Virus record (IMG/VR): IMGVR_UViG_2974655256_000001
Span: 20,530 to 84,529 of that record
Direction: 5' to 3' (one strand)
DNA: 64,000 nucleotides
Source: a virus
Lineage: Duplodnaviria; Heunggongvirae; Uroviricota; Caudoviricetes; Demerecviridae
Positions 21,274 to 32,573 of this stretch are shown piece by piece. The translations under genes and the position numbers were made by a program. The notes under the pieces are model-generated. The model worked only from the letters and a program-made list of their open reading frames with translations, did not search any database and was not told the origin of the DNA. The stretch's first letter is position 1. Every line of letters begins with the position of its first letter.

Positions 21274-21349
21274 TGGCTGGGATGCCACGGATCGAACGTG
21301 GAACCTTCGGAGTCAGAGGCCGACGATCTGCCAATTGATCTACATCCCA
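21274..21349 (-). tRNA. tRNA-Gln (CUG)
   Basis: acceptor TGGGATG/CATCCCA, loop CTCTGAC. Confidence 0.7.
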
Positions 21350-21357
21350 ATAATTCT

Positions 21358-21558
21358 TTATTCTACAGGAACCGTTGCAATTGGCTCTGGTTCCTCAAGG
21401 CGTTTACCTTCATGATCAACACGAATAATACCGCAACCTTCACAGATTACTACAGCACCGTAACCTTCTTTAACTTCGGCTTCGGTAATCAGACCGGATA
21501 AATCTCCAGTATCTTTGCCCCACATATCAATGGAACACTCTTTACAGAAATCAGCCAT
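21358..21558 (-). CDS. small Cys-containing protein (66 aa)
   Basis: AGGAG RBS; CKEC...CEGCG motifs. Confidence 0.45.
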   Translation of the reverse strand: MADFCKECSIDMWGKDTGDLSGLITEAEVKEGYGAVVICEGCGIIRVDHEGKRLEEPEPIATVPVE

Positions 21559-21581
21559 TTATAGCTCCTATAGAATTTAGT

Positions 21582-21656
21582 TGGTGCACCATCAAGGAAT
21601 CGAACCTCGACCGCAGAGTTCGTAGCTCTGCATTCTTTCCATTAAACTAATGGCGC
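21582..21656 (-). tRNA. tRNA-Arg (ACG)
   Basis: loop CTACGAA, stem CAGAG/CTCTG. Confidence 0.7.
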
Positions 21657-21661
21657 AAATT

Positions 21662-21738
21662 TGGGGTGGCTAGTGGAATTCGAATCCACATAGGCCTGAT
21701 TCACAATCAGGATCATTAACCAATTATGATATAGCCAC
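21662..21738 (-). tRNA. tRNA-His (GUG)
   Basis: acceptor GTGGCTA/TAGCCAC, C73, loop TTGTGAA. Confidence 0.75.
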
Positions 21739-22239
21739 AATTGAGAACCATTGAGGAGTAGCGAACTCTCTACACTAGAAGCTTGCATGCCCATACCTAG
21801 TGATTAGACCTAGCAGATAGGCGCTACAAGTAACGGCCCTAAATGGTAGACTCAAACAGACAATGATACTCAATTGTGGCGGCTCTCCGAAACTCTTCAC
21901 ACTAACAACTAGTTGATTACTCTTGGATTCTCGCCCAAGAAATTCTCTAGAAAGGCGCACCGTTACTCTTTGAGCCATTGATGTGCCCTGCTGCTCCCAG
22001 GGCTAGCTATTACTTGTACGTTACATACTGGCCATAGCTAGGCGCACCGCAGATCCTATCATATAGTTTATAGTGCGGGAGGACTCATGCACGCACTTTA
22101 TCAAGAAGTAGAAGGACTTGAACCTTCATGAGTTAGACCATTTAACTCAGCCTCGTTTTCGGGTATCTTATTCGGAGTGGATGTTCCGCTTACGCCCTTT
22201 AGGAAGCCCCGTCTACCGGTTCCGGCATACTTCAAGATT

Positions 22240-22334
22240 TGGAGGTAGGTAAGGGGATCGAACCCTTACACCGTATCACTACGATCAACCGATTTCAAGT
22301 CGGAGTCCAGCGCCAGCCGTTGGATTGACCTACC
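22240..22334 (-). tRNA. tRNA-Ser (UGA), long variable arm
   Basis: acceptor GGTAGGT/ACCTACC, loop CTTGAAA. Confidence 0.65.
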
Positions 22335-22718
22335 ATTTAATTCTAGAAAACCTGCATGATGCTCTCTATGACAGTTAGAACATAGAAGAACACATTTACG
22401 CAGTTCAGCTATTACTTTGTCTTTGGCCATATTAGTTGAGGTAATACGTGCCAAATTAAAATCTTTCTCACTTGGGTCTAAGTGATGGAAATCGAGTGCT
22501 GCTTTGCATTTGCTGTATCCGCATACTTCACATGACAGAGATGGAAATACTTCTAGTATTACCTCTTCTGTTTTTCTCTTTCTACGAGAAAGATCACAAC
22601 TCTTGCAAGCTGCTTTCCACTTCTTTCTACCTGAAGCTTGCGTCCCATTAGCATAGAAATACTCTGTAGTAAGAGGGTATTCCACGCTGCAATCTGGACA
22701 TACTTTTGTTTCGTTCAT
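22266..22718 (-). CDS. HNH homing endonuclease (150 aa)
   Basis: HHLDPSEKDFNLA...CSNCHREHH; 3' end overlaps tRNA-Ser. Confidence 0.7.
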   Translation of the reverse strand: MNETKVCPDCSVEYPLTTEYFYANGTQASGRKKWKAACKSCDLSRRKRKTEEVILEVFPSLSCEVCGYSKCKAALDFHHLDPSEKDFNLARITSTNMAKDKVIAELRKCVLLCSNCHREHHAGFLELNGRSIQRLALDSDLKSVDRSDTV

Positions 22719-22734
22719 GCTATCCTATATTATC

Positions 22735-22827
22735 TGGCGGAAGAAGAGAGATTCGAACTCTCAAGCCTGCTTTCACAAGTCAGCCACTTTCCAAGCGGTT
22801 TTCGTCACCAATTCGATTTGCTCTTCC
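22735..22827 (-). tRNA. tRNA-Ser (GGA), long variable arm
   Basis: acceptor GGAAGAG/CTCTTCC, loop TTGGAAA. Confidence 0.65.
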
Positions 22828-22980
22828 ATTAATTATTAAATCTATTACTTCATTAGCAGTGACAGGGAGTACAAGATCAAATACTTTCTGATCGTACTTC
22901 ATACCCCACTCTATAAAAACGTATTCTCCAGTTAACCTATTCTTAGCTAGCCACACGTCTTGTATAGGAGTTTTTATCAT
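22780..22980 (-). CDS. possible small protein (66 aa)
   Basis: AAGGA RBS; C-terminus overlaps tRNA-Ser(GGA). Confidence 0.3.
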   Translation of the reverse strand: MIKTPIQDVWLAKNRLTGEYVFIEWGMKYDQKVFDLVLPVTANEVIDLIINGRANRIGDENRLESG

Positions 22981-22997
22981 TACTGCATCCTTAAAAA

Positions 22998-23084
22998 TGG
23001 TAGGGATGGAGGGACTCGAACCCACACGTATATTTCAACGCTAGAACCTAAATCTAGTGCGGCTACCAATTTCGCCACATCCCC
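22998..23084 (-). tRNA. tRNA-Leu (UAG), long variable arm
   Basis: loop TTTAGGT, stem CTAGA/TCTAG. Confidence 0.65.
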
Positions 23085-23093
23085 ATTTTAATT

Positions 23094-23169
23094 TGGTGGA
23101 GTCACTCAGAATTGAACTGAGTTCTACTACTTGCAAGGCAGTAAGTTTAACCAAATAACCTATGACCCC
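23094..23169 (-). tRNA. tRNA-Ala (UGC)
   Basis: G3-U70, loop CTTGCAA. Confidence 0.65.
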
Positions 23170-23174
23170 AAATT

Positions 23175-23252
23175 TGGTGGAGAATAACGAATTCGAATCG
23201 TTCTGATGTCCTCGGTGCAAGCGAGGTGTCCACTCCCAGCAGACCCATCCCC
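23175..23252 (-). tRNA. tRNA-Ala-like (UGC), imperfect acceptor stem
   Basis: stem CCTCG/CGAGG, loop CTTGCAC, D-loop CTGGGAG; acceptor pairs 5/7. Confidence 0.45.
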
Positions 23253-23491
23253 CAAATTCTTTAGTTTACTAAGGCTATTAGCTCGGCGTAACTACAGCAC
23301 CTTCGCTTCGAGCGGAAGGAACTGCGTCATCTCGCAAACCCGATACACTATTCAGTTGCCGCTGAATCTAGTGGACTAATCTAGAACTTCTCCCGAATTG
23401 TAGGGATCGTGCTTTTTGGCAGCCAGTCCTAGGTCGAGCTAATACCTTAGTGAACTATGATGAGGATTTCTCCCCATCAATTTATATAAAT

Positions 23492-23520
23492 ATTATAACA
23501 AGAAATTAAGCATTAAGCAA
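23492..23520 (-). promoter_or_regulatory. T5-type promoter driving tRNA cluster
   Basis: TTGCTT-17-TATAAT. Confidence 0.6.
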
Positions 23521-23881
23521 GTACATTTTTAGCGATTTCCTGTAGTTCCTTTACATCACGAACGTAAAGGTAATCAGAGCTTCCAGAGTGCATACTTTGC
23601 ATAACCACACCTTCATCTGGTGCATTATCCTTCAAAGTAATTCCTAACCAGAACTCGGCAAAACTAGGTGTTATCTCACCTTGACTTGCCTTGAATACAT
23701 CATATTCTGTAAGTTCTTGACCAGTAGATAATCCCAAATAGACAGAACTAAGATCAATCTCTTTATGAGACTCATAAAATTCCGATAGATCTTTTTCCAT
23801 ATCCCAGCCATGCTGCAACGCGAACTCCATTGTCACATGACCGAAATAACCTTGAATCTTGTTTGATAATTGCATTTGCAA
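23513..23881 (-). CDS. hypothetical protein (122 aa)
   Basis: ORF. Confidence 0.55.
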   Translation of the reverse strand: MQMQLSNKIQGYFGHVTMEFALQHGWDMEKDLSEFYESHKEIDLSSVYLGLSTGQELTEYDVFKASQGEITPSFAEFWLGITLKDNAPDEGVVMQSMHSGSSDYLYVRDVKELQEIAKNVLA

Positions 23882-23900
23882 TTCCTTATTTTGAGTTAAT

Positions 23901-23974
23901 TGGTACTCGGTGATAGAATCGAACTATCACAACCGCCGTGTAAAGACGGGGTTCTCCCATTAAACTAACTGAGC
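23901..23974 (-). tRNA. tRNA-Val (UAC)
   Basis: stem CCGTC/GGCGG, loop TTTACAC. Confidence 0.6.
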
Positions 23975-24107
23975 AAAAGATTTGCTACTAAAAATGCTTC
24001 GAACAGAAATTCACAAAATCCCGCTAAAAACATACCTATTGTAAAATCGGCAGAAAATACATAGGAATCTTTTATTTTCTGCTTCATTAAGTAAAACCAG
24101 ATAGTCA

Positions 24108-24425
24108 TTAAAATCTCTCCATTCTAAAGCCAATGAAGTAAGGTGCATTACACGGAACATGCTTAAGATCTTTAAGAGTAATTTTACGTCCTAAGCGTCG
24201 TTCCATACAAGTGAAACATAGAACAATATCTTTGGGCTGCCCTTTTCTTATCTGATCCCAGACCCAATCTTCAACCATACACATTTCATGGTATTGTTCA
24301 CAGTCTCGACAATAATGACACTGATGTTCTGGTACTTTTTGATTTTTAATACACAGTTCAGTAAAGCGTTTTCCGGCTCTGCCAGACATTTCTGATATTG
24401 TTTCTAGAACTTTGTTAATATTCAT
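24108..24425 (-). CDS. Cys-rich putative Zn-binding protein (105 aa)
   Basis: CHYCRDC...CFTC motifs; hairpin terminator downstream. Confidence 0.5.
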   Translation of the reverse strand: MNINKVLETISEMSGRAGKRFTELCIKNQKVPEHQCHYCRDCEQYHEMCMVEDWVWDQIRKGQPKDIVLCFTCMERRLGRKITLKDLKHVPCNAPYFIGFRMERF

Positions 24426-24441
24426 AACAAATTCCTTTAAA

Positions 24442-24520
24442 TTGGTAGATCGCCTGGGACTCGAACCCAGAACCTTCCGATTAAAAGTCGGATGCTACTA
24501 AACCTATTGAGCTAGCGACC
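24442..24520 (-). tRNA. tRNA-Lys (UUU)
   Basis: loop CTTTTAA identical to E. coli Lys. Confidence 0.65.
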
Positions 24521-24542
24521 TATTAGTAGCCATTATATACTT

Positions 24543-24689
24543 CTTTAATAGAATGGACTTTTAAGTAAGAATGATTAATCCCAAACTCAGCCATTACTTC
24601 TTTTTCATCTTTTCCATAATGTGCAAGTAAGGATCTTGAGGTATTATTACCTAAACGTTTGTCACTTACTACTAATCGAAATACTTTCA
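24543..24689 (-). CDS. small protein (48 aa)
   Basis: AGAGGA RBS; below track cutoff. Confidence 0.35.
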
Positions 24690-24709
24690 TTTCGAAATCC
24701 TCTATTAAA

Positions 24710-24787
24710 ATGGAAGCGGGTGCAGGAATCGAACCTACCTCTTTCTAGCTTATGAGACTAGCGATCTCTACCAGAGATCTAACCCGC
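24710..24787 (-). tRNA. tRNA-Met (CAU), 1:72 mismatch, initiator-like
   Basis: loop CTCATAA; U1-U72 unpaired. Confidence 0.6.
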
Positions 24788-24793
24788 AATTGT

Positions 24794-24869
24794 TTGGTCA
24801 GTGCGGCAGGACTCGAACCTGCGACCCGAAGCATCCAAGACTCCCACGCTACCAACTGCGCTACGCACT
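24794..24869 (-). tRNA. tRNA-Pro (UGG)
   Basis: TAGCGCAGTTGGTAGCG D-arm like E. coli Pro, loop CTTGGAT. Confidence 0.7.
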
Positions 24870-24900
24870 GTTAATTTTTGTTAACTCACTTTATAAAATA

Positions 24901-24929
24901 TATTATACAGATAATTAAGCAGAATAGCA
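24901..24929 (-). promoter_or_regulatory. T5-type promoter driving tRNA cluster
   Basis: TTGCTA-17-TATAAT. Confidence 0.6.
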
Positions 24930-25075
24930 AATGAATTTTTAATAAATTTACTTATTGTGTAGGCCACCTGGAGGCTATCAACCCCACGGCTGACAAAGAA
25001 GTTTGCGAGACTCCTCTTAAATGCCAGAATAGACCCGCCGATCTATCGGAACCTACATAATAAGTAAACTTTCGT

Positions 25076-25264
25076 TTACTTTCCCTTTAAATATTGATAA
25101 GTTTTATCTACTAGTTCTTGCCTAGAGATAATACCATTACGATAATCAGCAATAAAACTGTCTATCCTAGAATCTTTTATTACTACATTATCAGATAGTT
25201 CTGATAATGTATCAGCTAATTTATCTAACTCTTCATAATCCATAGAATCTCCAGAATATGTCAT
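25076..25264 (-). CDS. small acidic protein (62 aa)
   Basis: ORF. Confidence 0.45.
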   Translation of the reverse strand: MTYSGDSMDYEELDKLADTLSELSDNVVIKDSRIDSFIADYRNGIISRQELVDKTYQYLKGK

Positions 25265-25504
25265 TCTAGACAGGACTCGAACCTGTTATCACTTGTGCGG
25301 ACTTACGAGAACCATTCTTTCACTCGAATTGAACGAGCTTCTGCCCTCGCCAAGCTGGTTTCCCCATCAACCACGCTAGAATGTTTGATTGTTTTCAGTG
25401 CAAGAGTCCGAGTCTTGGACACGACCGCTTCGCAAGTACATAGGCAGCTTATCATGAGTCAGCACTTCCGAATTGCTAGCCCCGTGTTCTGCACTGAAAT
25501 TTTA

Positions 25505-25852
25505 TTAGTTTAACCGTAAAGTATTATCTACTTCACCATTAATTGTTCGGCATTCCTCTGGAATTGCTGGTGTGGCCTTGTATTCCCACCACTCAGCACC
25601 ATCATATTCCCCACGTTCTAGCCAAGTTCCGTCGGCAAACCATACATTACCATAAAGTAATTGTCCACCGTATCCAGAGTCATATTTAAAGTCTAGGTTA
25701 TTAAGAAAATCCTCAATATCTTCTTCTGTGTAACCTAAAGGCAGTACCCAAACTTTTTTATCCCCATAATACCCGAATTCTATTTTAATACACTTAACTT
25801 TAGAATTGGTATTTTTTAAGGCGAGTAACAACTCTTCTTTAGCATTACGCAT
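25505..25852 (-). CDS. hypothetical protein (115 aa)
   Basis: ORF. Confidence 0.55.
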   Translation of the reverse strand: MRNAKEELLLALKNTNSKVKCIKIEFGYYGDKKVWVLPLGYTEEDIEDFLNNLDFKYDSGYGGQLLYGNVWFADGTWLERGEYDGAEWWEYKATPAIPEECRTINGEVDNTLRLN

Positions 25853-25877
25853 AGTATATTCTCATACTGAATTAAGT

Positions 25878-25954
25878 TGGCGCGACCGATGGGATTTGAA
25901 CCCACATTCCCTCCCGTGACAGGGGAGTACCATTACCAAGCCAGCCCCGGTCGC
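25878..25954 (-). tRNA. tRNA-Asp (GUC)
   Basis: acceptor GCGACCG/CGGTCGC, loop CTGTCAC. Confidence 0.75.
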
Positions 25955-25963
25955 ATAATTTAT

Positions 25964-26149
25964 TTACTCAGCTTTGAGTTTTTCAATAGCTGCATTAAGT
26001 TCTTTAAGAAACTCTTTTCGTACATTAAGACGATTGAGACTTACTAGTATATCATGTTTAAGTTCTTCGATGTATTTCTTCTCAACTTCAATATTGTTGA
26101 TAGTACTATCACGGTGAACTTCTAGCTGCGCAATTACATTCTTGGACAT
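25964..26149 (-). CDS. small coiled-coil protein (61 aa)
   Basis: ORF. Confidence 0.45.
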   Translation of the reverse strand: MSKNVIAQLEVHRDSTINNIEVEKKYIEELKHDILVSLNRLNVRKEFLKELNAAIEKLKAE

Positions 26150-26251
26150 GCTTGTTTCCTCAGTTATTAATGAAAATGGTATCTGTGGCTGAATTCGATA
26201 TCAGCAATGATAGCTGGTTGGCTACCGGTTTACTTAACTCTACACAGAATT

Positions 26252-26329
26252 TGGCGGTTCCTACTGGATTCGAACCAGCAACCCTCAACTTAACAAGATG
26301 CCGCTCTAACCAATTAGAGCTAAGGAACC
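26252..26329 (-). tRNA. tRNA-Asn (GUU), weak anticodon stem
   Basis: acceptor GGTTCCT/AGGAACC, loop TTGTTAA. Confidence 0.55.
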
Positions 26330-26824
26330 ATATAAGTCAGAACTAGAGTTAATACGTTCTAGATATTTACTAAGATCTCTAGAATTTATACTAAACCACT
26401 CATGTTCTTTTAAATCTTTGAAATACTGGTGAATTAGTTTTTCACCTTTTCGTTTGTCAAACCAAAAAGACCAATGCTCTAACTTATAATCCCTATAAGG
26501 GGAATAAGTCTGATATTGAGCTAATCTCTCTTTTGGATTTTGACTCATGCCTATTTTATACTGATTTTTCCATGCAGGATTACTAATACAGTATACAAAA
26601 CCTTCAGAAATAGGAAGTTTATTTTCCTGCTTAAACTTTATAAAGGAAAGTGCAGCAAGTTTTCTCGAATACATAGTATTTGTATTCTTTTTGGTATTAC
26701 CATTGGTTCCTGAAAGATTTATATATTCTTCCATAAATCTTTGGATTAGTTCTGCGGTTATATAGAAGGGCTCATTAGTAACAACGCCTTTCTTTACCAA
26801 ACTATCAAAAACTTTTGTATGCAC
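26306..26824 (-). CDS. T5orf172-type GIY-YIG-like domain protein (172 aa)
   Basis: GFVYCISN...YKIGMSQN...R motif; 3' end overlaps tRNA-Asn. Confidence 0.65.
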   Translation of the reverse strand: MHTKVFDSLVKKGVVTNEPFYITAELIQRFMEEYINLSGTNGNTKKNTNTMYSRKLAALSFIKFKQENKLPISEGFVYCISNPAWKNQYKIGMSQNPKERLAQYQTYSPYRDYKLEHWSFWFDKRKGEKLIHQYFKDLKEHEWFSINSRDLSKYLERINSSSDLYGSLALIG

Positions 26825-26845
26825 TACTTCTTTCCTTTAGTAACT

Positions 26846-26922
26846 TGGACGACCGCATGAGATTTGAACTCACATAAAAAAGGATTTGCAATCCTTCGCC
26901 TAAGCCATTCAGCCAACGGTCG
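26846..26922 (-). tRNA. tRNA-Cys (GCA)
   Basis: loop TTGCAAA, U73. Confidence 0.7.
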
Positions 26923-26970
26923 GTTTATCTTGTTCTGTCATGTTGCTTCTCCAGTTCAATTTATGTAATT

Positions 26971-26999
26971 ATTATACAGAACTTTTGGAAACTAAGCAA
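26971..26999 (-). promoter_or_regulatory. T5-type promoter driving tRNA-Cys
   Basis: TTGCTT-17-TATAAT. Confidence 0.6.
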
Positions 27000-27279
27000 C
27001 TATATTTTTTAAGAATTTGATGCCTTTCTTTTTCTTCTTATATTTCCACGTTAAGGGATTCTGTCGATTATGAACGCTTGAGATCTTTGTCTCGTCAAAG
27101 TTCTTCAATATCATGTAGTCACAAGATAACTGTTCTAATGGAATGTGATCACCATCAAAAGCATATACATAAGGCTGTTGACTAGTACGATAATGATAGA
27201 CTTTGTTAATTCTACGTTTCAGCGACTTATCCGCGCAGTAAATAAAGAAGTTTTCAGGATGCATCAGCATCTCCTTCAA
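26992..27279 (-). CDS. hypothetical protein (95 aa)
   Basis: ORF. Confidence 0.5.
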   Translation of the reverse strand: MKEMLMHPENFFIYCADKSLKRRINKVYHYRTSQQPYVYAFDGDHIPLEQLSCDYMILKNFDETKISSVHNRQNPLTWKYKKKKKGIKFLKNIVA

Positions 27280-27281
27280 AT

Positions 27282-27356
27282 TGGTGCACCATGTTCGAAT
27301 CGAACGAACCTCTCAAGCTCTTCAGGCAAGCGCTAATCCATCTCAGCTAAAGGTGC
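27282..27356 (-). tRNA. tRNA-Phe (GAA), weak anticodon stem
   Basis: loop CTGAAGA. Confidence 0.55.
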
Positions 27357-27362
27357 AAATTT

Positions 27363-27439
27363 TGGCAAACCTACTAGGACTCGAACCTAGACCGTACGGT
27401 TTTGGAGACCGACATGCTGTCCAGTAACACTCTAGGAAT
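27363..27439 (-). tRNA. tRNA-Trp (CCA), two U-U acceptor mismatches
   Basis: anticodon arm TCGGTCTCCAAAACCGT near-identical to E. coli Trp. Confidence 0.55.
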
Positions 27440-27447
27440 GCAGAAAT

Positions 27448-27524
27448 TGGCGTCCTGTGCGGGGATCGAACCCGCAAATCCTACCTTGAAAGGGTAGTGA
27501 CTTTACCAGTTTGTCTAACAGGAC
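27448..27524 (-). tRNA. tRNA-Glu (UUC)
   Basis: acceptor GTCCTGT/ACAGGAC, loop CTTTCAA. Confidence 0.75.
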
Positions 27525-27531
27525 TTAAATT

Positions 27532-27622
27532 TGGTGTTGGATGATGGAGTCGAACCACCCGAGACCCTTCCGAGTCGGCAGATTTACAGTCTGCTTCGCT
27601 ACCTCTACGATACTAATCCAAC
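27532..27622 (-). tRNA. tRNA-Tyr (GUA), long variable arm
   Basis: acceptor GTTGGAT/ATCCAAC, loop CTGTAAA. Confidence 0.7.
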
Positions 27623-27684
27623 ATATTTAAAAGTATTCAAATACTAGTTTAAACACTTTTAAATATGTTTCCGAATTAGATAAC

Positions 27685-27714
27685 TATTATACCAAGTTTT
27701 AAGGCACTGAGCAA
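27685..27714 (-). promoter_or_regulatory. T5-type promoter driving tRNA cluster
   Basis: TTGCTC-18-TATAAT. Confidence 0.55.
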
Positions 27715-27750
27715 GTCAAATTTTAAAGAACTTGCTCAGTGCTGTATTAG

Positions 27751-28026
27751 TTAGTCGAACTTAGGAGTGACAGTTAAGGAGAACGGAAGTTCGAAAACTT
27801 CTTCGCCCTCATTACTAACGGTAACTACACGACCTTTAAGTTCAGACATTAAAATATCAATATCAGCTTTTGCATCTGGAGCCATGCCAGCTTCAATACA
27901 TTTAGCTTTAACTTCCGGTAAAAGCTCTACATTATAGAGATAGAGCCACTCAACCTCACCTTCCCAGTCTTCCCAGGATTTGCAGATTGCACTTTCAATA
28001 CCAGTTGCTACAACACGATTTTGCAT
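27751..28026 (-). CDS. hypothetical protein (91 aa)
   Basis: ORF with promoter. Confidence 0.5.
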   Translation of the reverse strand: MQNRVVATGIESAICKSWEDWEGEVEWLYLYNVELLPEVKAKCIEAGMAPDAKADIDILMSELKGRVVTVSNEGEEVFELPFSLTVTPKFD

Positions 28027-28056
28027 TAATTAACTCCTTCATCAATTTATATAACT

Positions 28057-28086
28057 ATTATACCAGAAATTTAAAGTAAAAGGCAA
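28057..28086 (-). promoter_or_regulatory. T5-type early promoter
   Basis: TTGCCT-18-TATAAT. Confidence 0.55.
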
Positions 28087-28116
28087 GTACATTTTTAAAA
28101 ATTCTGTTTGGAGGAG

Positions 28117-28323
28117 CTAAACTCCAGATTTTTCGGCCAAGTCTAGACTAATAAGAGTTATAGCCATAATTGCTGCACCGTGTTCTTTTTCTCCGGTGTT
28201 TTTAGCAGAGTCTATAATATCCTTAATCTGTTCGTAATAACTTTTTACTTCTTGTTCAATGCCTGCCTCGGCTATCATGCCTTTAGCCATGAATCGTTGC
28301 ATGGTAATTTCAGGATTAGCCAT
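28117..28323 (-). CDS. hypothetical protein (68 aa)
   Basis: ORF. Confidence 0.45.
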   Translation of the reverse strand: MANPEITMQRFMAKGMIAEAGIEQEVKSYYEQIKDIIDSAKNTGEKEHGAAIMAITLISLDLAEKSGV

Positions 28324-28483
28324 GTTGTTTCTCCAGTTTCATTTTTAATAGTTTACAGATGAAATCAACGTCTTCATCTGTGCCTAAGTCTCTATCCTCA
28401 AGGGTCGCCTTGAAGTTTTTCGTCAATTCCATTAGGATGACTTCCCTAGAACGACGTGTTGGCGGAGGTGGATGTCTATACAT
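28316..28483 (-). CDS. small protein (55 aa)
   Basis: AAGGAA RBS; stop overlaps next ATG. Confidence 0.35.
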   Translation of the reverse strand: MYRHPPPPTRRSREVILMELTKNFKATLEDRDLGTDEDVDFICKLLKMKLEKQHG

Positions 28484-28498
28484 CTTATTTCCTTAATT

Positions 28499-28575
28499 TG
28501 GTAGGGGTGGTGGGATTCGAACCCACAAAACCTGAATTTTAAGTCCAGTACCTATGCCAATTCGATTACACCCCC
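28499..28575 (-). tRNA. tRNA with UAA anticodon (Leu) but short variable arm
   Basis: stem CTGGA/TTCAG, loop CTTAAAA, acceptor GGGGGTG/CACCCCT. Confidence 0.55.
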
Positions 28576-28582
28576 GTGTAAT

Positions 28583-28771
28583 TTAGTCAATTACTTTTGA
28601 AGCTTCAAGGTAGTCGATATAGTGTACGTTTTCTACCGTAATCATATAATCTGCCACTTTATCCATAGCTTGGGCTTCAGAGGTAGCTCTGGCTAACCTA
28701 TATCCTTTTTTATATTCATCGGGGTATTCTCTATCTTGAATAAACACAACATAAACTATGTATAATTCCAC
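28583..28771 (-). CDS. possible small protein (62 aa, GTG start)
   Basis: AGGGGA RBS before GTG; longer ATG ORF would overlap two tRNAs. Confidence 0.35.
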   Translation of the reverse strand: MELYIVYVVFIQDREYPDEYKKGYRLARATSEAQAMDKVADYMITVENVHYIDYLEASKVID

Positions 28772-28791
28772 TTGTAATCCCCTAATTAAGT

Positions 28792-28869
28792 TGGTGGCTC
28801 CCCGAGGATTCGAACCTACGTACCTTCCAGTTATGAGCTGGGTGCTCATACCATATGAGCTTGAGAACC
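28792..28869 (-). tRNA. tRNA-Met/Ile2 (CAU), third CAU tRNA
   Basis: loop CTCATAA, acceptor GGTTCTC/GGGAGCC. Confidence 0.55.
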
Positions 28870-28875
28870 AGAATT

Positions 28876-28964
28876 TGGCGGAAGAAGTGGGAATCGAACC
28901 CACAAGGCTATATTTCAAACCGACAGATTAGCAATCTGCTGCAATACCGTTATGCTATTCTTCC
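28876..28964 (-). tRNA. tRNA-Ser (GCU), long variable arm
   Basis: acceptor GGAAGAA/TTCTTCC, stem GCAGA/TCTGT, loop TTGCTAA. Confidence 0.65.
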
Positions 28965-28979
28965 GAATTTATAAGATAT

Positions 28980-29008
28980 ATTATATTAGAAATTTAGCTT
29001 CATAGCAA
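28980..29008 (-). promoter_or_regulatory. T5-type promoter driving tRNA cluster
   Basis: TTGCTA-17-TATAAT. Confidence 0.6.
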
Positions 29009-29555
29009 GAAAATTTTTCAAGTTTTCGGTAGACATCTCATCTACATCTACAGGAGAAACAAAGCCGTTTAATTTTCTAGCAAATTTTTCACCCGCAGGA
29101 TCATTATCCCCGACAGCTACCAATTTAAAAGGTAATAATTTCAGTTGCTTTAATAACGCTTTTCCTGGAGAAGAGCCCAACATTGCTAGCGCTGGATAAC
29201 CAGCGTTATGTAACGCAACTGCCTTAAATACAGATTCAGCGATCAATACTACTTTTTCATCTCCATTGAGAGTTTCTAGTCCCCATACACATTGGGTAGT
29301 AGAATAAGTAAAATATTTAGCTTCAAAGGGGCACTTACCATGACCTTTTGGAGCAGAAGGATTATACGTCTGATAGCCTCTCAACATCCCAGAGAAGTCA
29401 TACAACGGGACTGTTAGCCATCCTTCCGGACTTAACCAGCAGTGATATTTATCTGTATCAAATCCTCTAGATAAGAGGTGCTGTGTTAGCTCATCAACAT
29501 TCATATTTGGTTCCTCTCTCAAATTTATAGATATATTATACAGAGAATTTAGCAT
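28986..29555 (-). CDS. Toprim-domain protein (189 aa)
   Basis: conserved Glu then VAVGDNDPAGEKFA DxD motif. Confidence 0.55.
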   Translation of the reverse strand: MLNSLYNISINLREEPNMNVDELTQHLLSRGFDTDKYHCWLSPEGWLTVPLYDFSGMLRGYQTYNPSAPKGHGKCPFEAKYFTYSTTQCVWGLETLNGDEKVVLIAESVFKAVALHNAGYPALAMLGSSPGKALLKQLKLLPFKLVAVGDNDPAGEKFARKLNGFVSPVDVDEMSTENLKNFLAMKLNF

Positions 29556-29563
29556 TCAAGCAA
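29535..29563 (-). promoter_or_regulatory. T5-type early promoter
   Basis: TTGCTT-17-TATAAT. Confidence 0.6.
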
Positions 29564-29679
29564 TTAAATTTTTTAACTTTTTAGAGAAAAATCATAGGGC
29601 ACTTAAGGGTAGCAGATAAGTGGTGAGGACCAAAATTTGTGACCCCACTAAAAATCCGGGGGCAATTTTTAAAGACCCC

Positions 29680-29708
29680 TTGACATTTTCGCTGGGGTAG
29701 TGTAAAGT
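29680..29708 (+). promoter_or_regulatory. sigma70-like promoter TTGACA-17-TAAAGT
   Basis: differs from T5 early consensus; shares TTGACATTTTCGC with promoter at 58285. Confidence 0.45.
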
Positions 29709-29770
29709 ATATGTTATGGATGAGTGATCAAAGAGACACACATTTTCTATATACTAGGAGGTGTCAAAAA

Positions 29771-30754
29771 ATGACAGAAGAAGTAGCTAAGAGTCCTGAG
29801 ACCGTCGCTAGCGTTGCAGCAGAACTGCACCGTCACGAGGAATCAGATAAGAAAAAGTGGGAGAAGGTCAGAGCCTACGAAGAGAAACATCGTGAACACG
29901 ATGAAGAAGAAGATGACGATGAACATTGTCATAAATATGGAAAACATAAAATGCAAGAACCAGTAAACGTATTTACTAGTGGCTTCCCTGGTCTACTGGG
30001 TGGTTACCCAGCAAACGCAGGTGCTTTCGGTGGTGAAGGTATGGGACTATTCGGAGCTATCCTAATCGGTGCTCTACTAACAGGCGGATTCGGTGGATTC
30101 GGTGGATTCGGTGGACGTGGTGTAGTTGGTGATGGTACCGCAGTTGATGCAGTACTTCAGAACCAAGATACCGCCAGTATTCTAGCAGCTATTAACACTA
30201 CTCGTACAGAAGCTAACCAGGGTACTGGAGCTGTTTTAAGCGCAGTTAACAATGGTTTTAGCCAGACATCCCAAAACCAGAGCCGTGATACTCAGTCTGT
30301 ACTAACTACGATCTATGGTACAGGTGCTAATCTATCTAATCAGATCTGCCAGGAAACTCGCAATGTTATTCAGGGTCAGTTCGATCTTTCTCGCCAGATT
30401 GATCAATCTTTCGCAGCTAATCAGATAGCTCGTGCACAAGATAAGTTTGATTCTGCACAGATCGCTTTCCAGCAGACTTTACAAACTAATAACCAGTTTG
30501 CCGCTGTTCAGGCTCAGATGTGTGCTAACCAGAACTCTCTGGAACGTCAGATCGCTGAATGTTGCTGTGAACTTCAGACTGCGATCGCTGGTGTAACTAC
30601 TGCGCGTATCCAGGATGAGTTAGATGCATGTCGCCTACGTGAAGCAATCGCTGCGGGTAACGGTGCTAACGGTCAGGTAATTAATCAAATCGCTGTAAGT
30701 CTTGGTGCTATCACTCAGACTCTGGCTGGTCTGCAGGCTAAACTGCCGGCTTAA
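29771..30754 (+). CDS. His/acidic N-terminus, Gly-zipper hydrophobic segment, Q/N/A-rich low-complexity protein (327 aa)
   Basis: AGGAGG RBS; GGFGGFGGFGG segment; CCCE motif. Confidence 0.6.
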   Translation: MTEEVAKSPETVASVAAELHRHEESDKKKWEKVRAYEEKHREHDEEEDDDEHCHKYGKHKMQEPVNVFTSGFPGLLGGYPANAGAFGGEGMGLFGAILIGALLTGGFGGFGGFGGRGVVGDGTAVDAVLQNQDTASILAAINTTRTEANQGTGAVLSAVNNGFSQTSQNQSRDTQSVLTTIYGTGANLSNQICQETRNVIQGQFDLSRQIDQSFAANQIARAQDKFDSAQIAFQQTLQTNNQFAAVQAQMCANQNSLERQIAECCCELQTAIAGVTTARIQDELDACRLREAIAAGNGANGQVINQIAVSLGAITQTLAGLQAKLPA

Positions 30755-30775
30755 TATTAAGGGGAGGAGCCCATT

Positions 30776-31192
30776 ATGAGTAAATATGGTTTTGTAAATA
30801 ACGGACTTAATCAAAGTATGGGCTCCCAGCAGCCAATTCCGGGTCTGGATAACCCCTACTTACAACAATTGCAACAGCGTTTAGCAGAAGCGCAGCAGAT
30901 GCAGCAACAACTCCAGCAAAACCCTGGAAGTGTGAGTCCTATGCAAATGATGCAGCAAATGAGCGGGCAGTCGCAAATGCCTCAACAAATGCAGCAACAG
31001 ATTCCGCAGCAGCAAGTTCAGCAGCAAACCCAACAACCGCAGGTTTCTGCGGAAGGACAGGCAGTACTAGCCCTTTTCGAAGACTTCGCAAAGACAGAGG
31101 ATGGGAAGCAGCTTGTATCACTTATGGGTAAGTTTAATAGCTTCTGCCAAAGCCAAGTTGCAAAAGCTCAAAATGGTGGTAATAACTCCTAA
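30776..31192 (+). CDS. Gln-rich low-complexity protein (138 aa)
   Basis: GGGGAGGAG RBS; long Q/M-rich stretch. Confidence 0.55.
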   Translation: MSKYGFVNNGLNQSMGSQQPIPGLDNPYLQQLQQRLAEAQQMQQQLQQNPGSVSPMQMMQQMSGQSQMPQQMQQQIPQQQVQQQTQQPQVSAEGQAVLALFEDFAKTEDGKQLVSLMGKFNSFCQSQVAKAQNGGNNS

Positions 31193-31201
31193 GGAGAAAT
31201 T

Positions 31202-31396
31202 ATGTGTTGCAGAAAACCTGTTTCGTGCTGCCCAATGCCTGTAGCACGTTGTTGCTCTCCAGCAATGTTTACGCAAATACCGGCGTTCAATCCGTTTGCC
31301 TTTAAGCCTACTCTTATCCTGCCCCCTAGAGTAGATTTTCAGTCAAGATTGGCCTCCCGTATGGGTGGTTGCTGTACACCGAGAGTGTGGTTCTGA
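31202..31396 (+). CDS. Cys-rich small protein with four CC doublets (64 aa)
   Basis: AAGGAG RBS; CC x4, Pro-rich. Confidence 0.5.
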   Translation: MCCRKPVSCCPMPVARCCSPAMFTQIPAFNPFAFKPTLILPPRVDFQSRLASRMGGCCTPRVWF

Positions 31397-31411
31397 AGAA
31401 CCAAACAATAA

Positions 31412-31449
31412 AGCCCCTAAGTCTTTCGACTAGGGGCTTTTCTGTATTT
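31412..31449 (+). terminator. rho-independent terminator of + island
   Basis: AGCCCCTAAG...CTAGGGGCT then T-run. Confidence 0.6.
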
Positions 31450-31454
31450 AAGAT

Positions 31455-31492
31455 AAAAGAAAAGCCCTGCGCTCTCCAGGGAACGCAGGGCT
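31455..31492 (-). terminator. rho-independent terminator after SPFH gene
   Basis: AGCCCTGCG...CGCAGGGCT stem, U-run on minus. Confidence 0.6.
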
Positions 31493-31516
31493 TACTTCAG
31501 ATGTTACGTGCAGGTA

Positions 31517-32464
31517 TTATTTATTACGCATATCCATGATCATTTGACCATCGTAGCCAGTACCTACCACAGTCTGAGGTACACCACCTTGATATTTCTG
31601 AGCACGAATCATTTCGACTTCCAGTTGTTTCCAACGAATCATCTCAGGAGTAATGGTACGTTGCAATGCGGCGTTAGCTTCAGCTTCTTTCTTAGCTGCA
31701 TACAGTTTAGCATCTGCGTCACGTTCGTTAGCAATAGCTTGGTTATTACGAGCTTCGCGATCTGCTTCTGCTTGTTTAACCTTCTGCTGTGCTTCTTGTT
31801 CAACACGAGCCAGTTCAGCTTTCGCAGCATTAACTTGCTCTTCACGAACTTTGGTATTCTGTACCTGTTCCATGATTACCGGTGGCAAAGTAATATCCTG
31901 AAGGAATACCTGCTTAACTGTATAACCATATGGGCGTGCGTACTCTTCAACTTCCTGTTGAATTGCAGTTTGCAATTGAGCCTGAATTTTAGCATCAAAC
32001 AAATCTTGTGCTTTAGGTACAGACTTACCAAACTCACGAATAGTAGACAGTAATTTTTCAGTTACATACTTGTCTAGCGCCTGATCCTGAGTACCTGCGT
32101 TAATACGGTTAATTGGTGCCTTAGAACCATCAAACTGCAACATAACAGTCAGGTCAACAGTGGATTTAAACTTATCCTGACTAGGAACCTGAAGTTTATC
32201 TAATTTTACAGCAATGTCTTTTGTACTAAAAGTATCGAAAGATGCAAATGGGTTTACAAGATGAAAACCAGGTAATACAGGATTAGGGTCTACTTTACCC
32301 AGAAATGTTTGGGTTTTAACCGTACCATCAGAAACAATAGTATATGAATTAAAAGCTAGGATTAAACCTGCTAAACCAACTACAGCACCAATACCCCAAC
32401 GTTTAATAGTACGAATTACTTTCTGCTCAGAAGTCAGTTCTTTCATATTTTTAGTAGCAAACAT
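31517..32464 (-). CDS. SPFH/band-7 (HflC/prohibitin-like) membrane protein (315 aa)
   Basis: N-terminal TM, SPFH core, long Ala/Gln/Glu coiled-coil tail. Confidence 0.7.
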   Translation of the reverse strand: MFATKNMKELTSEQKVIRTIKRWGIGAVVGLAGLILAFNSYTIVSDGTVKTQTFLGKVDPNPVLPGFHLVNPFASFDTFSTKDIAVKLDKLQVPSQDKFKSTVDLTVMLQFDGSKAPINRINAGTQDQALDKYVTEKLLSTIREFGKSVPKAQDLFDAKIQAQLQTAIQQEVEEYARPYGYTVKQVFLQDITLPPVIMEQVQNTKVREEQVNAAKAELARVEQEAQQKVKQAEADREARNNQAIANERDADAKLYAAKKEAEANAALQRTITPEMIRWKQLEVEMIRAQKYQGGVPQTVVGTGYDGQMIMDMRNK

Positions 32465-32498
32465 ATATTTCCTTTGTTTTAGTTACAGTTAATAAAAT

Positions 32499-32573
32499 TG
32501 GCCGAGGTGACAGGATTCGAACCTGCATAAAGGAATTTAGAAGACTCCTGCCTCTCCCTTAGACTACACCCCG
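32499..32573 (-). tRNA. tRNA-Arg (UCU)
   Basis: acceptor CGGGGTG/CACCTCG, loop CTTCTAA. Confidence 0.65.

What the first reader, a model, noticed from the sequence alone, without database searches (positions are those of the whole stretch)
29640..31455. Oppositely oriented 3-gene island of low-complexity proteins inside the tRNA/early region
Between minus-strand early genes sits a self-contained + strand unit with its own promoter and terminator. The promoter is TTGACA-17-TAAAGT, not the T5 early type. The three genes have strong RBSs and encode unusual proteins. The first (327 aa) has a His/acidic head, a GGFGGFGGFGG glycine-zipper hydrophobic segment and a long Q/N/A/T-rich tail ending in a CCCE motif. 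The second (138 aa) is glutamine-rich, like prion-like or phase-separating sequences. The third (64 aa) carries four Cys-Cys doublets and many prolines. I recognise no enzyme or structural phage family. The composition suggests a membrane-anchored low-complexity assembly, a metal- or redox-active peptide, or a host-targeting module. A terminator for the opposite strand is placed immediately next to the unit.
Basis: seen in the sequence. Interest (0 to 1): 0.8.

Follow-up and report, generated by a model that had tools for sequence, protein, structure and literature searches.

The report
Mobile cysteine-motif three-gene phage cassette
A self-contained three-gene unit, present in about half of T5-like phages and also in unrelated phages, encodes a probably membrane-anchored rod-like protein and two small partners that all carry conserved cysteine motifs; it is real, mobile and dispensable for growth in the laboratory, but its function is still unknown.

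Summary
The window is a T5-like phage (100% identical to Salmonella phage LVR16A). The three + strand ORFs are the homologues of T5.077, T5.078 and T5.079, which are annotated only as hypothetical. All three are under purifying selection. They form a discrete 1,913-bp module (29545-31457) with its own promoter and terminator. The promoter is unlike ten annotated T5 early promoters. Close relatives such as phage EH4 lack exactly this segment, and roughly half of T5-like records carry it. The same gene order also occurs in a lambdoid phage contig, in Pseudomonas phage KPP23, and in a distant T5-like phage, so it is a horizontally mobile accessory unit ("moron"). A published CRISPRi screen scored all three T5 genes as without fitness effect. 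gpA has a glycine-zipper hydrophobic segment and a roughly 200-residue helical rod with an 11-residue repeat and an invariant Cys plus CCC motif. That motif defines an undescribed domain that also occurs in crAss-like phages and giant-virus contigs. No Pfam, NCBIfam, PADLOC, PDB or fold match assigns a function. My best guess, held with low confidence, is an autonomous complex anchored in the inner membrane, held together through cysteines, and used in phage-phage or phage-host competition.

The parts
29545..31457 (+). Whole cassette (1,913 bp): the segment present in the window and absent from the otherwise 94-95% identical locus of Salmonella phage EH4
   Evidence: BLAST of EH4 (L044) against the window joins 29544 directly to 31458. 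About 222 phage records carry the trio, against 439 that carry the neighbouring SPFH-tRNA-Arg segment.
29680..29708 (+). Sigma-70-type promoter TTGACA-17-TAAAGT, the equivalent of T5 'promoter P12'
   Evidence: Consensus scan. The T5 record annotates promoter P12 at the homologous place. It differs from 10 annotated T5 early promoters. A similar TTGACA-17-TAGAGT sits upstream of the distant T5-like copy L003.
29771..30754 (+). gpA (327 aa, T5.077 homologue, phrog_8119). It has a conserved N-terminal helix, an acidic/His-rich linker, a glycine-zipper hydrophobic segment, and a roughly 200-residue helical rod.
   Evidence: ORF and RBS. dN/dS is 0.12-0.17 against other T5-like phages. Alignment of 18 homologues. 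AlphaFold2 model with mean pLDDT 76.
29795..29917 (+). gpA residues 9-49: conserved N-terminal helix (V..EL.RHE..DK motif)
   Evidence: pLDDT 93-96 in the 100-sequence model. The motif is shared with distant relatives.
30032..30118 (+). gpA residues about 88-116: hydrophobic glycine-zipper segment (GMGLFGAILIGALLTGGFGGFGGFGG), the putative membrane anchor
   Evidence: Best 19-residue Kyte-Doolittle window scores 1.72 at residue 92. K/R follows the segment on the C-terminal side in 42 of 54 family members, which favours N-out/C-in by the positive-inside rule. AlphaFold2 confidence is low here.
30140..30739 (+). gpA residues 124-323: helical rod with an 11-residue (hendecad) repeat. It includes a single predicted 105-residue helix (170-274).
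   Evidence: Helices 134-163, 170-274 (pLDDT 94-98) and 277-323. Hydrophobic periodicity of 3.65 residues and a visible Qxx[FL]xxxQ[IA]xx register.
30560..30568 (+). Invariant Cys264-Cys265-Cys266 (TGT TGC TGT), the core of the 'ECCCE' domain. Invariant Cys251 lies 13 residues upstream (nt 30521-30523).
   Evidence: Invariant in 18 homologues. CCC is present in 72 of 100 profile hits in a conserved 72-residue context.
30776..31192 (+). gpB (138 aa, T5.078 homologue, phrog_7894). It has a conserved N-terminal helix, a variable Gln-rich linker, and a conserved C-terminal domain with one conserved Cys (Cys124, FCQS).
   Evidence: dN/dS is 0.07-0.18. Homologues follow gpA in L003, L004/L005 and KPP23. 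116 homologues were found, all hypothetical apart from a recurring 'cAMP-dependent protein kinase catalytic subunit' label that I regard as spurious, and all those with a source name come from T5-like phages or enterobacterial assemblies.
31202..31396 (+). gpC (64 aa, T5.079 homologue). The N-terminus is Met-Cys-Cys. It has four Cys-Cys doublets, 10 Pro, and no signal peptide or hydrophobic segment.
   Evidence: Against L025 there are 9 synonymous and 2 non-synonymous differences (dN/dS 0.056). An ORF of 60-69 aa starting MCC or MCGCC, with further CC doublets, sits at the same position in L003, L004/L005 and KPP23. Chance of four or more CC doublets is about 1e-4.
31410..31449 (+). Intrinsic terminator of the cassette: 10-bp perfect stem AAAGCCCCTA/TAGGGGCTTT, 11-nt loop, T-rich tail
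   Evidence: Read from the sequence. The T5 record calls the homologous site an 'efficient bidirectional rho-independent transcription terminator'. Terminators also follow gpC in L004 and KPP23.
31462..31493 (-). Terminator of the neighbouring - strand SPFH gene. It lies outside the cassette, because the empty-site phage retains it.
   Evidence: 13-bp stem found by the scan. Retained in EH4.

Best explanation
The region is a horizontally mobile accessory transcription unit (a 'moron') that works independently of the phage carrying it.

Shown:
- It is a 1.9-kb module with its own sigma-70-type promoter and terminator, and it is present or absent among near-identical T5-like phages.
- The same three-gene order occurs in a lambdoid phage, in Pseudomonas phage KPP23, and in a distant T5-like phage.
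- All three ORFs are under purifying selection.
- Knock-down of the T5 orthologues has no fitness cost in the laboratory.

Inferred from sequence:
- gpA oligomerises and inserts into the inner membrane through its glycine-zipper segment.
- Its roughly 200-residue hendecad-repeat helical rod most probably lies in the cytoplasm, by the positive-inside rule and because many relatives with the ECCCE domain have no hydrophobic segment.
- gpB and gpC, which have no signal peptides, bind this rod.
- The invariant Cys251/Cys264-266 cluster of gpA, Cys124 of gpB, and the N-terminal Cys and Cys-Cys doublets of gpC link the three proteins, either by shared metal-thiolate sites or by disulfides.

Speculative:
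- The cassette functions in phages with unrelated replication, virion and lysis genes, so it must act on the host cell or on competitors rather than on its carrier phage.
- My committed guess is that the membrane-attached complex alters the inner membrane of the infected or lysogenic cell so as to exclude or abort superinfecting phages, in the manner of other moron-encoded inner-membrane exclusion proteins.
For: - Identity and annotation.
- Empty-site allele with exact boundaries 29544|31458.
- Frequency of about 222 against 439 T5-like records.
- A natural nonsense allele of gpA in one phage (L015).
- Trio synteny in a lambdoid phage between the Q antiterminator and holin-lysozyme-Rz, on the opposite strand; in KPP23/RSP; and in a distant T5-like phage.
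- Promoter unlike the T5 early promoters. Terminators follow gpC in three settings.
- Purifying selection.
- The CRISPRi-ART supplementary tables list T5.077, T5.078 and T5.079 as 'unknown function' and 'Not Fit' (PMC11879866).
- Hydrophobic segment and charge asymmetry.
- Helical rod.
- Invariant cysteines.
- T5 and the lambdoid phage have complete holin/endolysin/spanin sets of their own.
Against: - There is no direct evidence that gpA is in the membrane. AlphaFold2 confidence in the hydrophobic segment is low, and translocating a 90-residue charged N-terminal tail would be unusual.
- No evidence of physical interaction among the three proteins exists beyond co-inheritance.
- No hit to any PADLOC defence model or any known exclusion family.
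- Most relatives with the ECCCE domain occur alone, without gpB or gpC and often without a hydrophobic segment. Many are in giant-virus contigs. The domain itself may therefore be only a generic oligomerisation module, and this says nothing about exclusion.
- Genes for peptidoglycan hydrolases or holins recur within a few kb of family members, which might point to a lysis-related role instead.
Confidence: 0.4

Rival explanations
1. Lysis-associated accessory function. The complex modulates the timing or completeness of envelope disruption, for example as an antiholin-like regulator or an auxiliary membrane-fusion or tethering device. The cysteines would act as a redox switch, as in SAR endolysins and spanins.
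For: Genes of the ECCCE family repeatedly lie near lysis genes:
- next to holin-lysozyme-Rz in the lambdoid contig;
- directly after a Peptidase_M15_3 endolysin in a Flavobacterium contig;
- 1.3-3.5 kb from Phage_lysozyme in L047 and L042;
- between the holin, endolysin or LysB-like genes and the virion genes in crAss-like phages;
- 1.7-2.6 kb from a Hydrolase_2 cell-wall hydrolase in T5-like phages;
- lysis-type Pfam hits near about 5 of 20 further loci.

Non-essentiality is typical of lysis regulators.
Against: - T5 encodes a holin, an endolysin and Rz-like spanins elsewhere, and the lambdoid phage has its own Rz.
- The cassette is transcribed from its own promoter, antisense to the surrounding genes.
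- It is shared by phages with unrelated holins, so a holin-specific regulator is unlikely.
- gpC has no signal peptide or lipobox, and gpB has no signal peptide.
- KPP23, L006, L007 and L041 show no lysis gene nearby.
- The ends of late or lysis operons are general insertion sites for morons, so proximity may be positional only.
Confidence: 0.17
2. Metal or redox handling is the function itself. gpC acts as a metallothionein-like thiolate peptide. The His/acidic head of gpA and its CCC cluster bind or buffer a soft metal (Cu, Zn, Fe-S) or sense thiol redox state, changing host metal or redox physiology during infection.
For: - All 8 Cys of gpC are vicinal pairs, and the N-terminal Cys is conserved in four lineages.
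- gpA has an invariant Cys plus CCC.
- The head is His-rich and acidic, up to HHYHHHHHEH in relatives.
- CCC and vicinal-Cys motifs are metal ligands in metallothioneins and in PP1 inhibitor-3 (papers listed, read as abstracts only). ArsD and the Mer proteins use vicinal Cys pairs (my own knowledge).
Against: - The His-rich head is absent from the 36-46% identity clade, so it is not a core feature.
- gpC contains 6 Phe and a Trp, which is atypical for metallothioneins.
- No match to any metal-binding family.
- The hypothesis does not explain the long rod or gpB.
Confidence: 0.15
3. Membrane-stabilising coat. The hendecad amphipathic helices lie on the inner membrane, like apolipoprotein, LEA or PspA-type helices, and preserve membrane integrity and proton-motive force during infection.
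For: - 11-residue periodicity.
- Four distant relatives match Pfam Apolipoprotein PF01442, best E-value 3e-10.
- The neighbouring gene in T5-like phages is an SPFH/band-7 membrane scaffold.
Against: - gpA itself does not match PF01442.
- The SPFH gene is not linked to the cassette in the lambdoid or KPP23 settings, and EH4 retains the SPFH gene without the cassette.
- The hypothesis gives no role to the conserved cysteines.
Confidence: 0.1
4. Structural or assembly protein: a virion fibre, an internal protein, or a scaffold of a replication or assembly compartment. The CCC would staple a multi-stranded coiled coil.
For: - The crAss-like homologues are annotated 'outer capsid protein/viral fiber' or 'spike protein/glycoprotein'.
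- Giant-virus homologues carry RS/RG/His-rich or CPPPC tails and occur as tandem paralogues.
- Vicinal cysteines staple coiled coils in vaccinia A27 and its partners (my own knowledge).
Against: - Near-identical T5-like phages with the same virion genes lack the cassette.
- It is dispensable.
- It has its own promoter, of non-early type, in the early/tRNA region, and a hydrophobic membrane-type segment.
- The crAss annotations are unvalidated remote similarities to coiled coils.
Confidence: 0.07
5. Not real genes: chance ORFs or a non-coding element.
For: gpC is short and has no PHROG family.
Against: - Purifying selection on all three ORFs.
- Conserved order and cysteine pattern at about 40% identity in four phage lineages.
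- No Rfam match above threshold.
Confidence: 0.01

Closest known systems
Moron-encoded inner-membrane superinfection-exclusion proteins (e.g. HK97 gp15, T4 Imm, P22 SieA; from my own knowledge)
   Same: An autonomous accessory transcription unit with its own promoter and terminator. Present or absent among close relatives. Dispensable for lytic growth. The product is a predicted inner-membrane protein.
   Different: No sequence or profile similarity. This unit has three co-inherited proteins, a 200-residue hendecad rod and conserved cysteine motifs, none of which occur in those proteins. Exclusion activity is untested.
Two-component spanins (lambda Rz/Rz1; T5.044/T5.045)
   Same: A membrane-anchored helical rod with conserved cysteines, paired with a small Pro-rich, Cys-containing partner. 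Frequently close to lysis genes.
   Different: The hydrophobic segment of gpA is internal, behind a 90-residue head, and charge asymmetry suggests the rod is cytoplasmic. gpC has no signal peptide or lipobox. The carrier phages already encode spanins. There is a third protein, gpB.
Vaccinia A27 with A26/A17 (coiled coil joined to its partners through vicinal cysteines; my own knowledge)
   Same: Adjacent cysteines inside a viral coiled coil, and vicinal Cys-Cys pairs in a partner protein. ECCCE-domain proteins also occur in giant-virus contigs.
   Different: No detectable homology. Disulfide formation in the bacterial cytoplasm is not expected without an oxidase. The resemblance is an analogy only.
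Apolipoprotein / LEA-type 11-residue amphipathic repeat proteins (Pfam PF01442)
   Same: 11-residue hydrophobic periodicity and a long uninterrupted helix. Four distant family members reach PF01442.
   Different: gpA does not match the Pfam model. It has a hydrophobic anchor and a Cys-triplet domain.
Metallothioneins, ArsD and Mer proteins (vicinal-cysteine metal ligands)
   Same: gpC is small, 12.5% Cys, and every Cys is in a CC pair. gpA has a CCC motif.
   Different: gpC is rich in Pro and Phe. It has no CxC or CxxC motifs and no family match. Metal binding is untested.

Membership tests
Phage moron (autonomous accessory transcription unit) | Own promoter and own terminator flanking the genes | tested here: met
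   Promoter at 29680-29708 (annotated as P12 in T5). Terminator at 31410-31449 (annotated as efficient in T5). Activity was not measured here.
Phage moron (autonomous accessory transcription unit) | Present or absent among close relatives, with clean boundaries | tested here: met
   EH4 joins 29544 to 31458. About 222 of about 439 T5-like records carry the cassette.
Phage moron (autonomous accessory transcription unit) | Found in otherwise unrelated phage genomes | tested here: met
   Lambdoid contigs L004/L005, Pseudomonas phages KPP23/RSP, and the distant T5-like L003.
Phage moron (autonomous accessory transcription unit) | Dispensable for lytic growth | tested here: met
   Taken from the literature, not tested by me. 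T5.077-079 are 'Not Fit' in CRISPRi-ART (PMC11879866 supplement). There is also a natural nonsense allele in L015.
Two-component spanin (Rz/Rz1) | The o-spanin has a lipoprotein signal peptide with a lipobox Cys | tested here: not met
   gpC starts MCCRKPVSCCP, with no hydrophobic h-region or lipobox.
Two-component spanin (Rz/Rz1) | The i-spanin has an N-terminal TMD with a periplasmic coiled coil | tested here: inconclusive
   The hydrophobic segment is at residues about 88-116, not at the N-terminus. K/R asymmetry favours a cytoplasmic rod in 42 of 54 relatives. Topology was not measured.
Two-component spanin (Rz/Rz1) | It supplies the phage's spanin function | tested here: not met
   T5 has the Rz-like spanins T5.044/045. 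The lambdoid carrier has a PF03245 Rz.
Holin | A small membrane protein encoded with the endolysin and required for lysis | tested here: not met
   gpA is 327 aa, sits in a separate antisense unit, and is dispensable. The T5 holin is T5.041, which scored as Fit in the same screen.
Known anti-phage defence systems (PADLOC-DB 2.0) | Profile match to a component of a described system | tested here: not met
   No hit at E<=1 for nine proteins from three lineages.
Metallothionein-like peptide | High Cys content in clustered motifs | tested here: met
   gpC has 8 Cys in 64 residues, all in CC pairs. p is about 1e-4 by shuffling.
Metallothionein-like peptide | Few or no aromatic residues; binds metal | tested here: not met
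   6 Phe and 1 Trp. Metal binding cannot be tested with these tools.
Apolipoprotein A1/A4/E-type repeat (PF01442) | Match to the Pfam model above its threshold | tested here: not met
   No PF01442 hit for gpA. Only 4 of 100 relatives match. The 11-residue periodicity itself is present.
Virion structural protein | Profile or fold match to a structural family, or conserved linkage to virion genes | tested here: not met
   No such match. The cassette lies in the tRNA/early region and is absent from relatives with the same virion genes. Virion proteomics was not examined.

The most novel reading that the evidence does not exclude
The trio is the founding example of an undescribed viral system: a rod with a hendecad repeat, anchored in the membrane, whose invariant Cys-triplet ('ECCCE') domain is shared by tailed phages, crAss-like phages and giant viruses. 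The rod is coupled through vicinal-cysteine chemistry (metal-thiolate or disulfide) to two dedicated small partners. The whole unit travels between unrelated phages as a self-sufficient competition or exclusion module.
Probability: 0.3. Interest if true: 0.8.

Novelty: new variant of a known kind. Interest (0 to 1): 0.6.

Why it matters
T5 is a classical model phage, yet this conserved unit with its own promoter has remained 'hypothetical' since the genome was annotated. Three results make it a tractable target:

- The cassette has exact boundaries, and natural alleles with and without it exist.
- It is shared with lambdoid and Pseudomonas phages.
- Its core carries an undescribed Cys-triplet coiled-coil domain that is widespread in bacterial viruses and in giant-virus contigs.

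If the cassette mediates exclusion or another competitive function, it would add a new protein architecture to the repertoire of phage-phage conflict. If the cysteine motifs bind metal or form covalent staples, the domain would be a new viral oligomerisation device. Current annotations also need correcting: the wrong reading frame for gpC in KPP23, and 'cAMP-dependent protein kinase' for gpB.

Tried and rejected
- **Family scans.** Pfam, PHROGs, NCBIfam and PADLOC scans of the three proteins and of their lambdoid and KPP23 homologues gave only the unannotated phrog_8119 and phrog_7894.
- **PDB sequence searches.** Profiles of gpA and of the ECCCE domain found nothing below E = 0.8.
- **Structure prediction and fold search.** AlphaFold2 with 18 sequences gave a useless model (pLDDT 46). 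With 100 sequences it gave a confident long helix. Foldseek against PDB and BFVD returned no match below E = 1.
- **Spanin hypothesis.** Rejected because gpC lacks a lipobox and the carrier phages have spanins of their own.
- **tRNA-linked mobility.** Rejected because there are no tRNA genes next to the lambdoid or KPP23 copies.
- **Genome searches.** The GTDB species-representative genomes gave no gpA relative. A motif scan there gave only 2-3 true ECCCE proteins. E. coli genomes gave no match to the lambdoid version.
- **Functional link to the SPFH neighbour.** Rejected because EH4 keeps the SPFH gene without the cassette.
- **gpC-like ORFs next to other ECCCE genes.** None credible.
- **Pfam survey of 150 neighbours of 20 further ECCCE loci.** No consistent partner.
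- **Profile search with the 72-residue domain in the 5.8-billion protein set.** Only 10 short unnamed proteins.
- **Literature.** No paper text names T5.077-079. Motif searches found only unrelated CCC-motif proteins.
- **Rfam.** Nothing above threshold.
- **Operator-like repeats around the promoter.** Nothing convincing.
Full report
**What is there**

The window is a T5-like phage. The region 29640-31455 is 100% identical to Salmonella phage LVR16A and 97-98% identical to many Tequintavirus and Epseptimavirus genomes. Three + strand ORFs lie between - strand genes: gpA 29771-30754 (327 aa), gpB 30776-31192 (138 aa) and gpC 31202-31396 (64 aa). Each is preceded by a strong Shine-Dalgarno sequence.

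On the left is a Toprim gene (28986-29555). It is the homologue of T5.076, which a published re-annotation lists as subverting retron defence. On the right is an SPFH/band-7 gene (31517-32464), followed by tRNA-Arg.

In the T5 reference record the three ORFs are T5.077, T5.078 and T5.079, all 'hypothetical protein'. That record also annotates a 'promoter P12' and an 'efficient bidirectional rho-independent transcription terminator' at this locus.

The promoter TTGACA-17-TAAAGT is at 29680-29708. The + strand terminator is a perfect 10-bp stem at 31410-31440 with an 11-nt loop. The scan missed it because it allows loops of 3-8 nt only. A separate - strand terminator (31493-31462) ends the SPFH gene.

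The compositional claims hold, with one exception. The CCCE motif is at residues 264-267, not at the C-terminus.

**It is more than chance, and it is translated**

- Against other T5-like phages, dN/dS is 0.12-0.17 for gpA and 0.07-0.18 for gpB.
- For gpC, the comparison with the most divergent phage carrying the same C-terminal allele gives 9 synonymous and 2 non-synonymous changes (dN/dS 0.056). Most other differences are a swap of the last six residues, TPRVWF against NKSIWF.
- All eight Cys of gpC are in CC pairs. Four or more pairs arose in 111 of 10^6 shuffles.
- No Rfam family reaches its threshold in the region.

**It is a discrete, mobile module**

Salmonella phage EH4 has both flanks at 94-95% identity but joins window position 29544 directly to 31458. 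The cassette is therefore 29545-31457: promoter, three genes and terminator, and nothing else. Other Epseptimavirus genomes also lack it.

About 222 phage records carry the trio, against 439 that carry the adjacent SPFH-tRNA-Arg segment. So about half of T5-like phages have it. One phage carries a nonsense codon in gpA.

Outside T5-like phages, the same order recurs in three settings:
- A lambdoid contig has a gpA homologue (36% identity), then a gpB homologue, then a 64-aa ORF reading MCGCC...QCC...PCC...KCC. The unit lies between the Q antiterminator and the holin-lysozyme-Rz genes. It is again on the opposite strand and is again followed by a terminator.
- Pseudomonas phages KPP23 and RSP carry it next to the terminase genes. 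There the Cys-doublet ORF (MCC..QCC..RCC..DCC) is in a different frame from the annotated ORF072.
- A distant T5-like contig carries it with a similar TTGACA-17-TAGAGT promoter.

When P12 is lined up with ten promoters annotated in the T5 early region, the ten share AAAAAT..TTGCT..TATAATA..ATAAATTG and P12 shares none of it.

The CRISPRi-ART screen lists T5.077, T5.078 and T5.079 as 'unknown function' and 'Not Fit' (PMC11879866, supplementary files 8 and 16). Taken together, this matches the definition of a moron.

**The proteins**

*gpA.* With a 100-sequence alignment, AlphaFold2 gives a mean pLDDT of 76:
- a confident N-terminal helix (residues 9-49);
- a disordered acidic/His-rich linker;
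- a low-confidence helix in the hydrophobic glycine-zipper segment;
- helices 134-163, 170-274 (a single 105-residue helix, pLDDT 94-98) and 277-323.

The hydrophobic periodicity of the long helix is 3.65 residues, that is 11/3. An 11-residue register Qxx[FL]xxxQ[IA]xx is visible. The 'low-complexity tail' is therefore an ordered hendecad rod.

Cys251 and Cys264-266 are invariant in 18 homologues, and the last 25 residues (NGQVINQIAVSLGAITQTLAALQAK) are almost invariant.

In 42 of 54 family members that have a hydrophobic segment, Lys/Arg follows the segment rather than preceding it (this set includes close relatives). By the positive-inside rule, this favours a cytoplasmic rod.

*gpB.* It has a conserved N-terminal helix (PYLQ.L.QRL) and a conserved C-terminal domain (DGKQLV..GKF..FCQS, with one conserved Cys). 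The Gln-rich middle is replaced by Pro-rich sequence in the lambdoid homologue.

*gpC.* It keeps an N-terminal Met-Cys-Cys and further CC pairs in all four lineages.

Neither gpB nor gpC has a signal peptide or a hydrophobic segment.

**A wider family**

A profile of gpA searched against 1.8 billion representative proteins found 99 hits. In the 100-sequence alignment built from these hits plus the window protein, 72 sequences share a roughly 72-residue domain:

..A(A/I)QL(E/Q)A.(K)N...L.(R)Q(L/I)(A)ECCCE(L)K..I......T..L.......R(L)RD.L

Many of them lack any hydrophobic segment. Others share only the N-terminal helix and the glycine zipper.

No Pfam family covers the domain. Four relatives match Apolipoprotein PF01442. 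The related PHROGs 8119, 9288 and 16490 are all 'unknown function'.

Members occur in several kinds of virus:
- crAss-like Suoliviridae, where they are annotated by remote similarity as 'spike protein/glycoprotein' or 'viral fiber';
- other phage contigs, often as single genes of opposite orientation;
- a contig with giant-virus marker genes.

A motif scan of IMG/VR gave 48 loci. Twelve are giant-virus MAGs, and five more are contigs of 199-473 kb. Their proteins are 430-600 aa, have RS/RG/His-rich or CPPPC tails, and sometimes occur as tandem paralogues.

gpB-like and gpC-like partners were found only in the gpA clade.

**How it most likely works**

*Shown.* This is an autonomous, mobile, dispensable, translated three-gene unit.

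*Inferred.* gpA is anchored in the inner membrane by its glycine zipper and forms an oligomeric hendecad rod, probably in the cytoplasm. gpB and gpC are obligate partners, given their co-inheritance at about 40% identity in four lineages. The conserved cysteines (Cys251 and CCC in gpA, one Cys in gpB, the N-terminal Cys and CC pairs in gpC) connect them through metal-thiolate sites or disulfides.

*Speculative.* The unit works in phages with unrelated replication, virion and lysis genes, so its target must be the host or competing phages. I favour an exclusion or competition role at the inner membrane, with an overall confidence of 0.4 in this layered statement. Confidence in the structural and genetic part is much higher than in the purpose.

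**Rivals**

- *Lysis-related role.* It is suggested by recurrent proximity of family members to peptidoglycan hydrolase or holin genes. It is weakened by complete lysis gene sets in the carriers, by antisense autonomous transcription, and by the cassette's portability between phages with different holins.
- *Metal or redox handling.* It fits the cysteine and histidine chemistry, but not the loss of the His-rich head in divergent homologues.
- *Membrane-stabilising coat.* It fits the 11-residue repeat and the SPFH neighbour, but that linkage is not conserved.
- *Structural role.* It is contradicted by the presence/absence polymorphism and by dispensability.
- *Non-coding artefact.* It is excluded by the comparative data.

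**Comparison with what is known**

No defining feature of spanins, holins, PADLOC defence systems, metallothioneins, apolipoprotein repeats or virion proteins is fully met (see the membership table). The genetic architecture is that of a classical moron. The protein content is uncharacterised. I therefore rate the finding as a new variant of a known kind. There is an appreciable chance, about 0.3, that it represents a new kind of viral accessory machinery built around an undescribed Cys-triplet coiled-coil domain.

Noticed in passing
window 31469-31473 (inside the - strand terminator hairpin 31462-31493): The GCGC in the hairpin corresponds to the site that the T5 record marks as a 'major DNA single-chain interruption' (consensus Pu-pGCGC; T5 39746-39747). 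One of the T5-type genomic nicks therefore falls in the terminator stem right next to the cassette.
   Followed up: partly
L008 (Pseudomonas phage KPP23, AB910392) 7819-8001: The record annotates ORF072 in a frame with no cysteines (7821-8015). The conserved Cys-doublet ORF (MCCNQPVPQCCG...RCCKKFDCC) is in the adjacent frame, so the GenBank annotation appears to use the wrong frame.
   Followed up: yes
window 30776-31192 and its homologues: Several GenBank records name gpB 'cAMP-dependent protein kinase catalytic subunit' (e.g. JLBYU40, HMD-P4, ESCO40). No kinase domain is detectable. The label probably spread from a low-complexity poly-Gln match.
   Followed up: partly
L015 (IMGVR_UViG_2974579171) 6001-6990: One T5-like genome has a stop codon in place of Gly113 of gpA, inside the GGFGGFGG segment. 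gpB and gpC are intact. This is either a natural knock-out or a sequencing error.
   Followed up: partly
window 28986-29555 (- strand): The left neighbour is the homologue of T5.076 (Toprim, annotated 'DNA primase'). The CRISPRi-ART re-annotation lists it as anti-defence ('subverts retron-mediated defense'). In many Epseptimavirus genomes this position is instead occupied by NadR/PnuC NAD-salvage genes.
   Followed up: no
window 31517-32464 (- strand): The SPFH/band-7 gene has 70-75% nucleotide identity to genes of large Klebsiella, Cronobacter and Aeromonas phages of 160-180 kb. This suggests exchange between T5-like phages and T4-like or other large phages.
   Followed up: no
window 20106-32573 (- strand): 25 tRNA genes, all on the - strand, bracket the cassette. 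tRNA-Arg(tct) at 32499-32573 keeps its position next to the cassette even in the distant T5-like contig L003.
   Followed up: partly
L049-L096 (IMG/VR), e.g. L065, L069, L084, L096: Giant-virus contigs encode tandem pairs of ECCCE-domain proteins. One paralogue ends in CPPPCPPPCPPPC repeats. Others end in RSRSRS, GRDGRD or poly-His tails.
   Followed up: no
L027 and L028 (crAss-like phages cr4_1 and cr52_1): Translations of the late genes around the ECCCE homologue contain in-frame stop codons, as expected for stop-codon reassignment in these phages. The homologue sits in a conserved four-gene block after a gene annotated 'RNA polymerase sigma factor/ubiquitin-like protein'.
   Followed up: no
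ECCCE-family proteins generally: Many family members end in a short hydrophobic beta-like tail (e.g. RLIPVTIPVGAG, RFVPLTVPVPL, NTQVRV, LQAKLPA). This hints at a conserved C-terminal docking motif of unknown partner.
   Followed up: no
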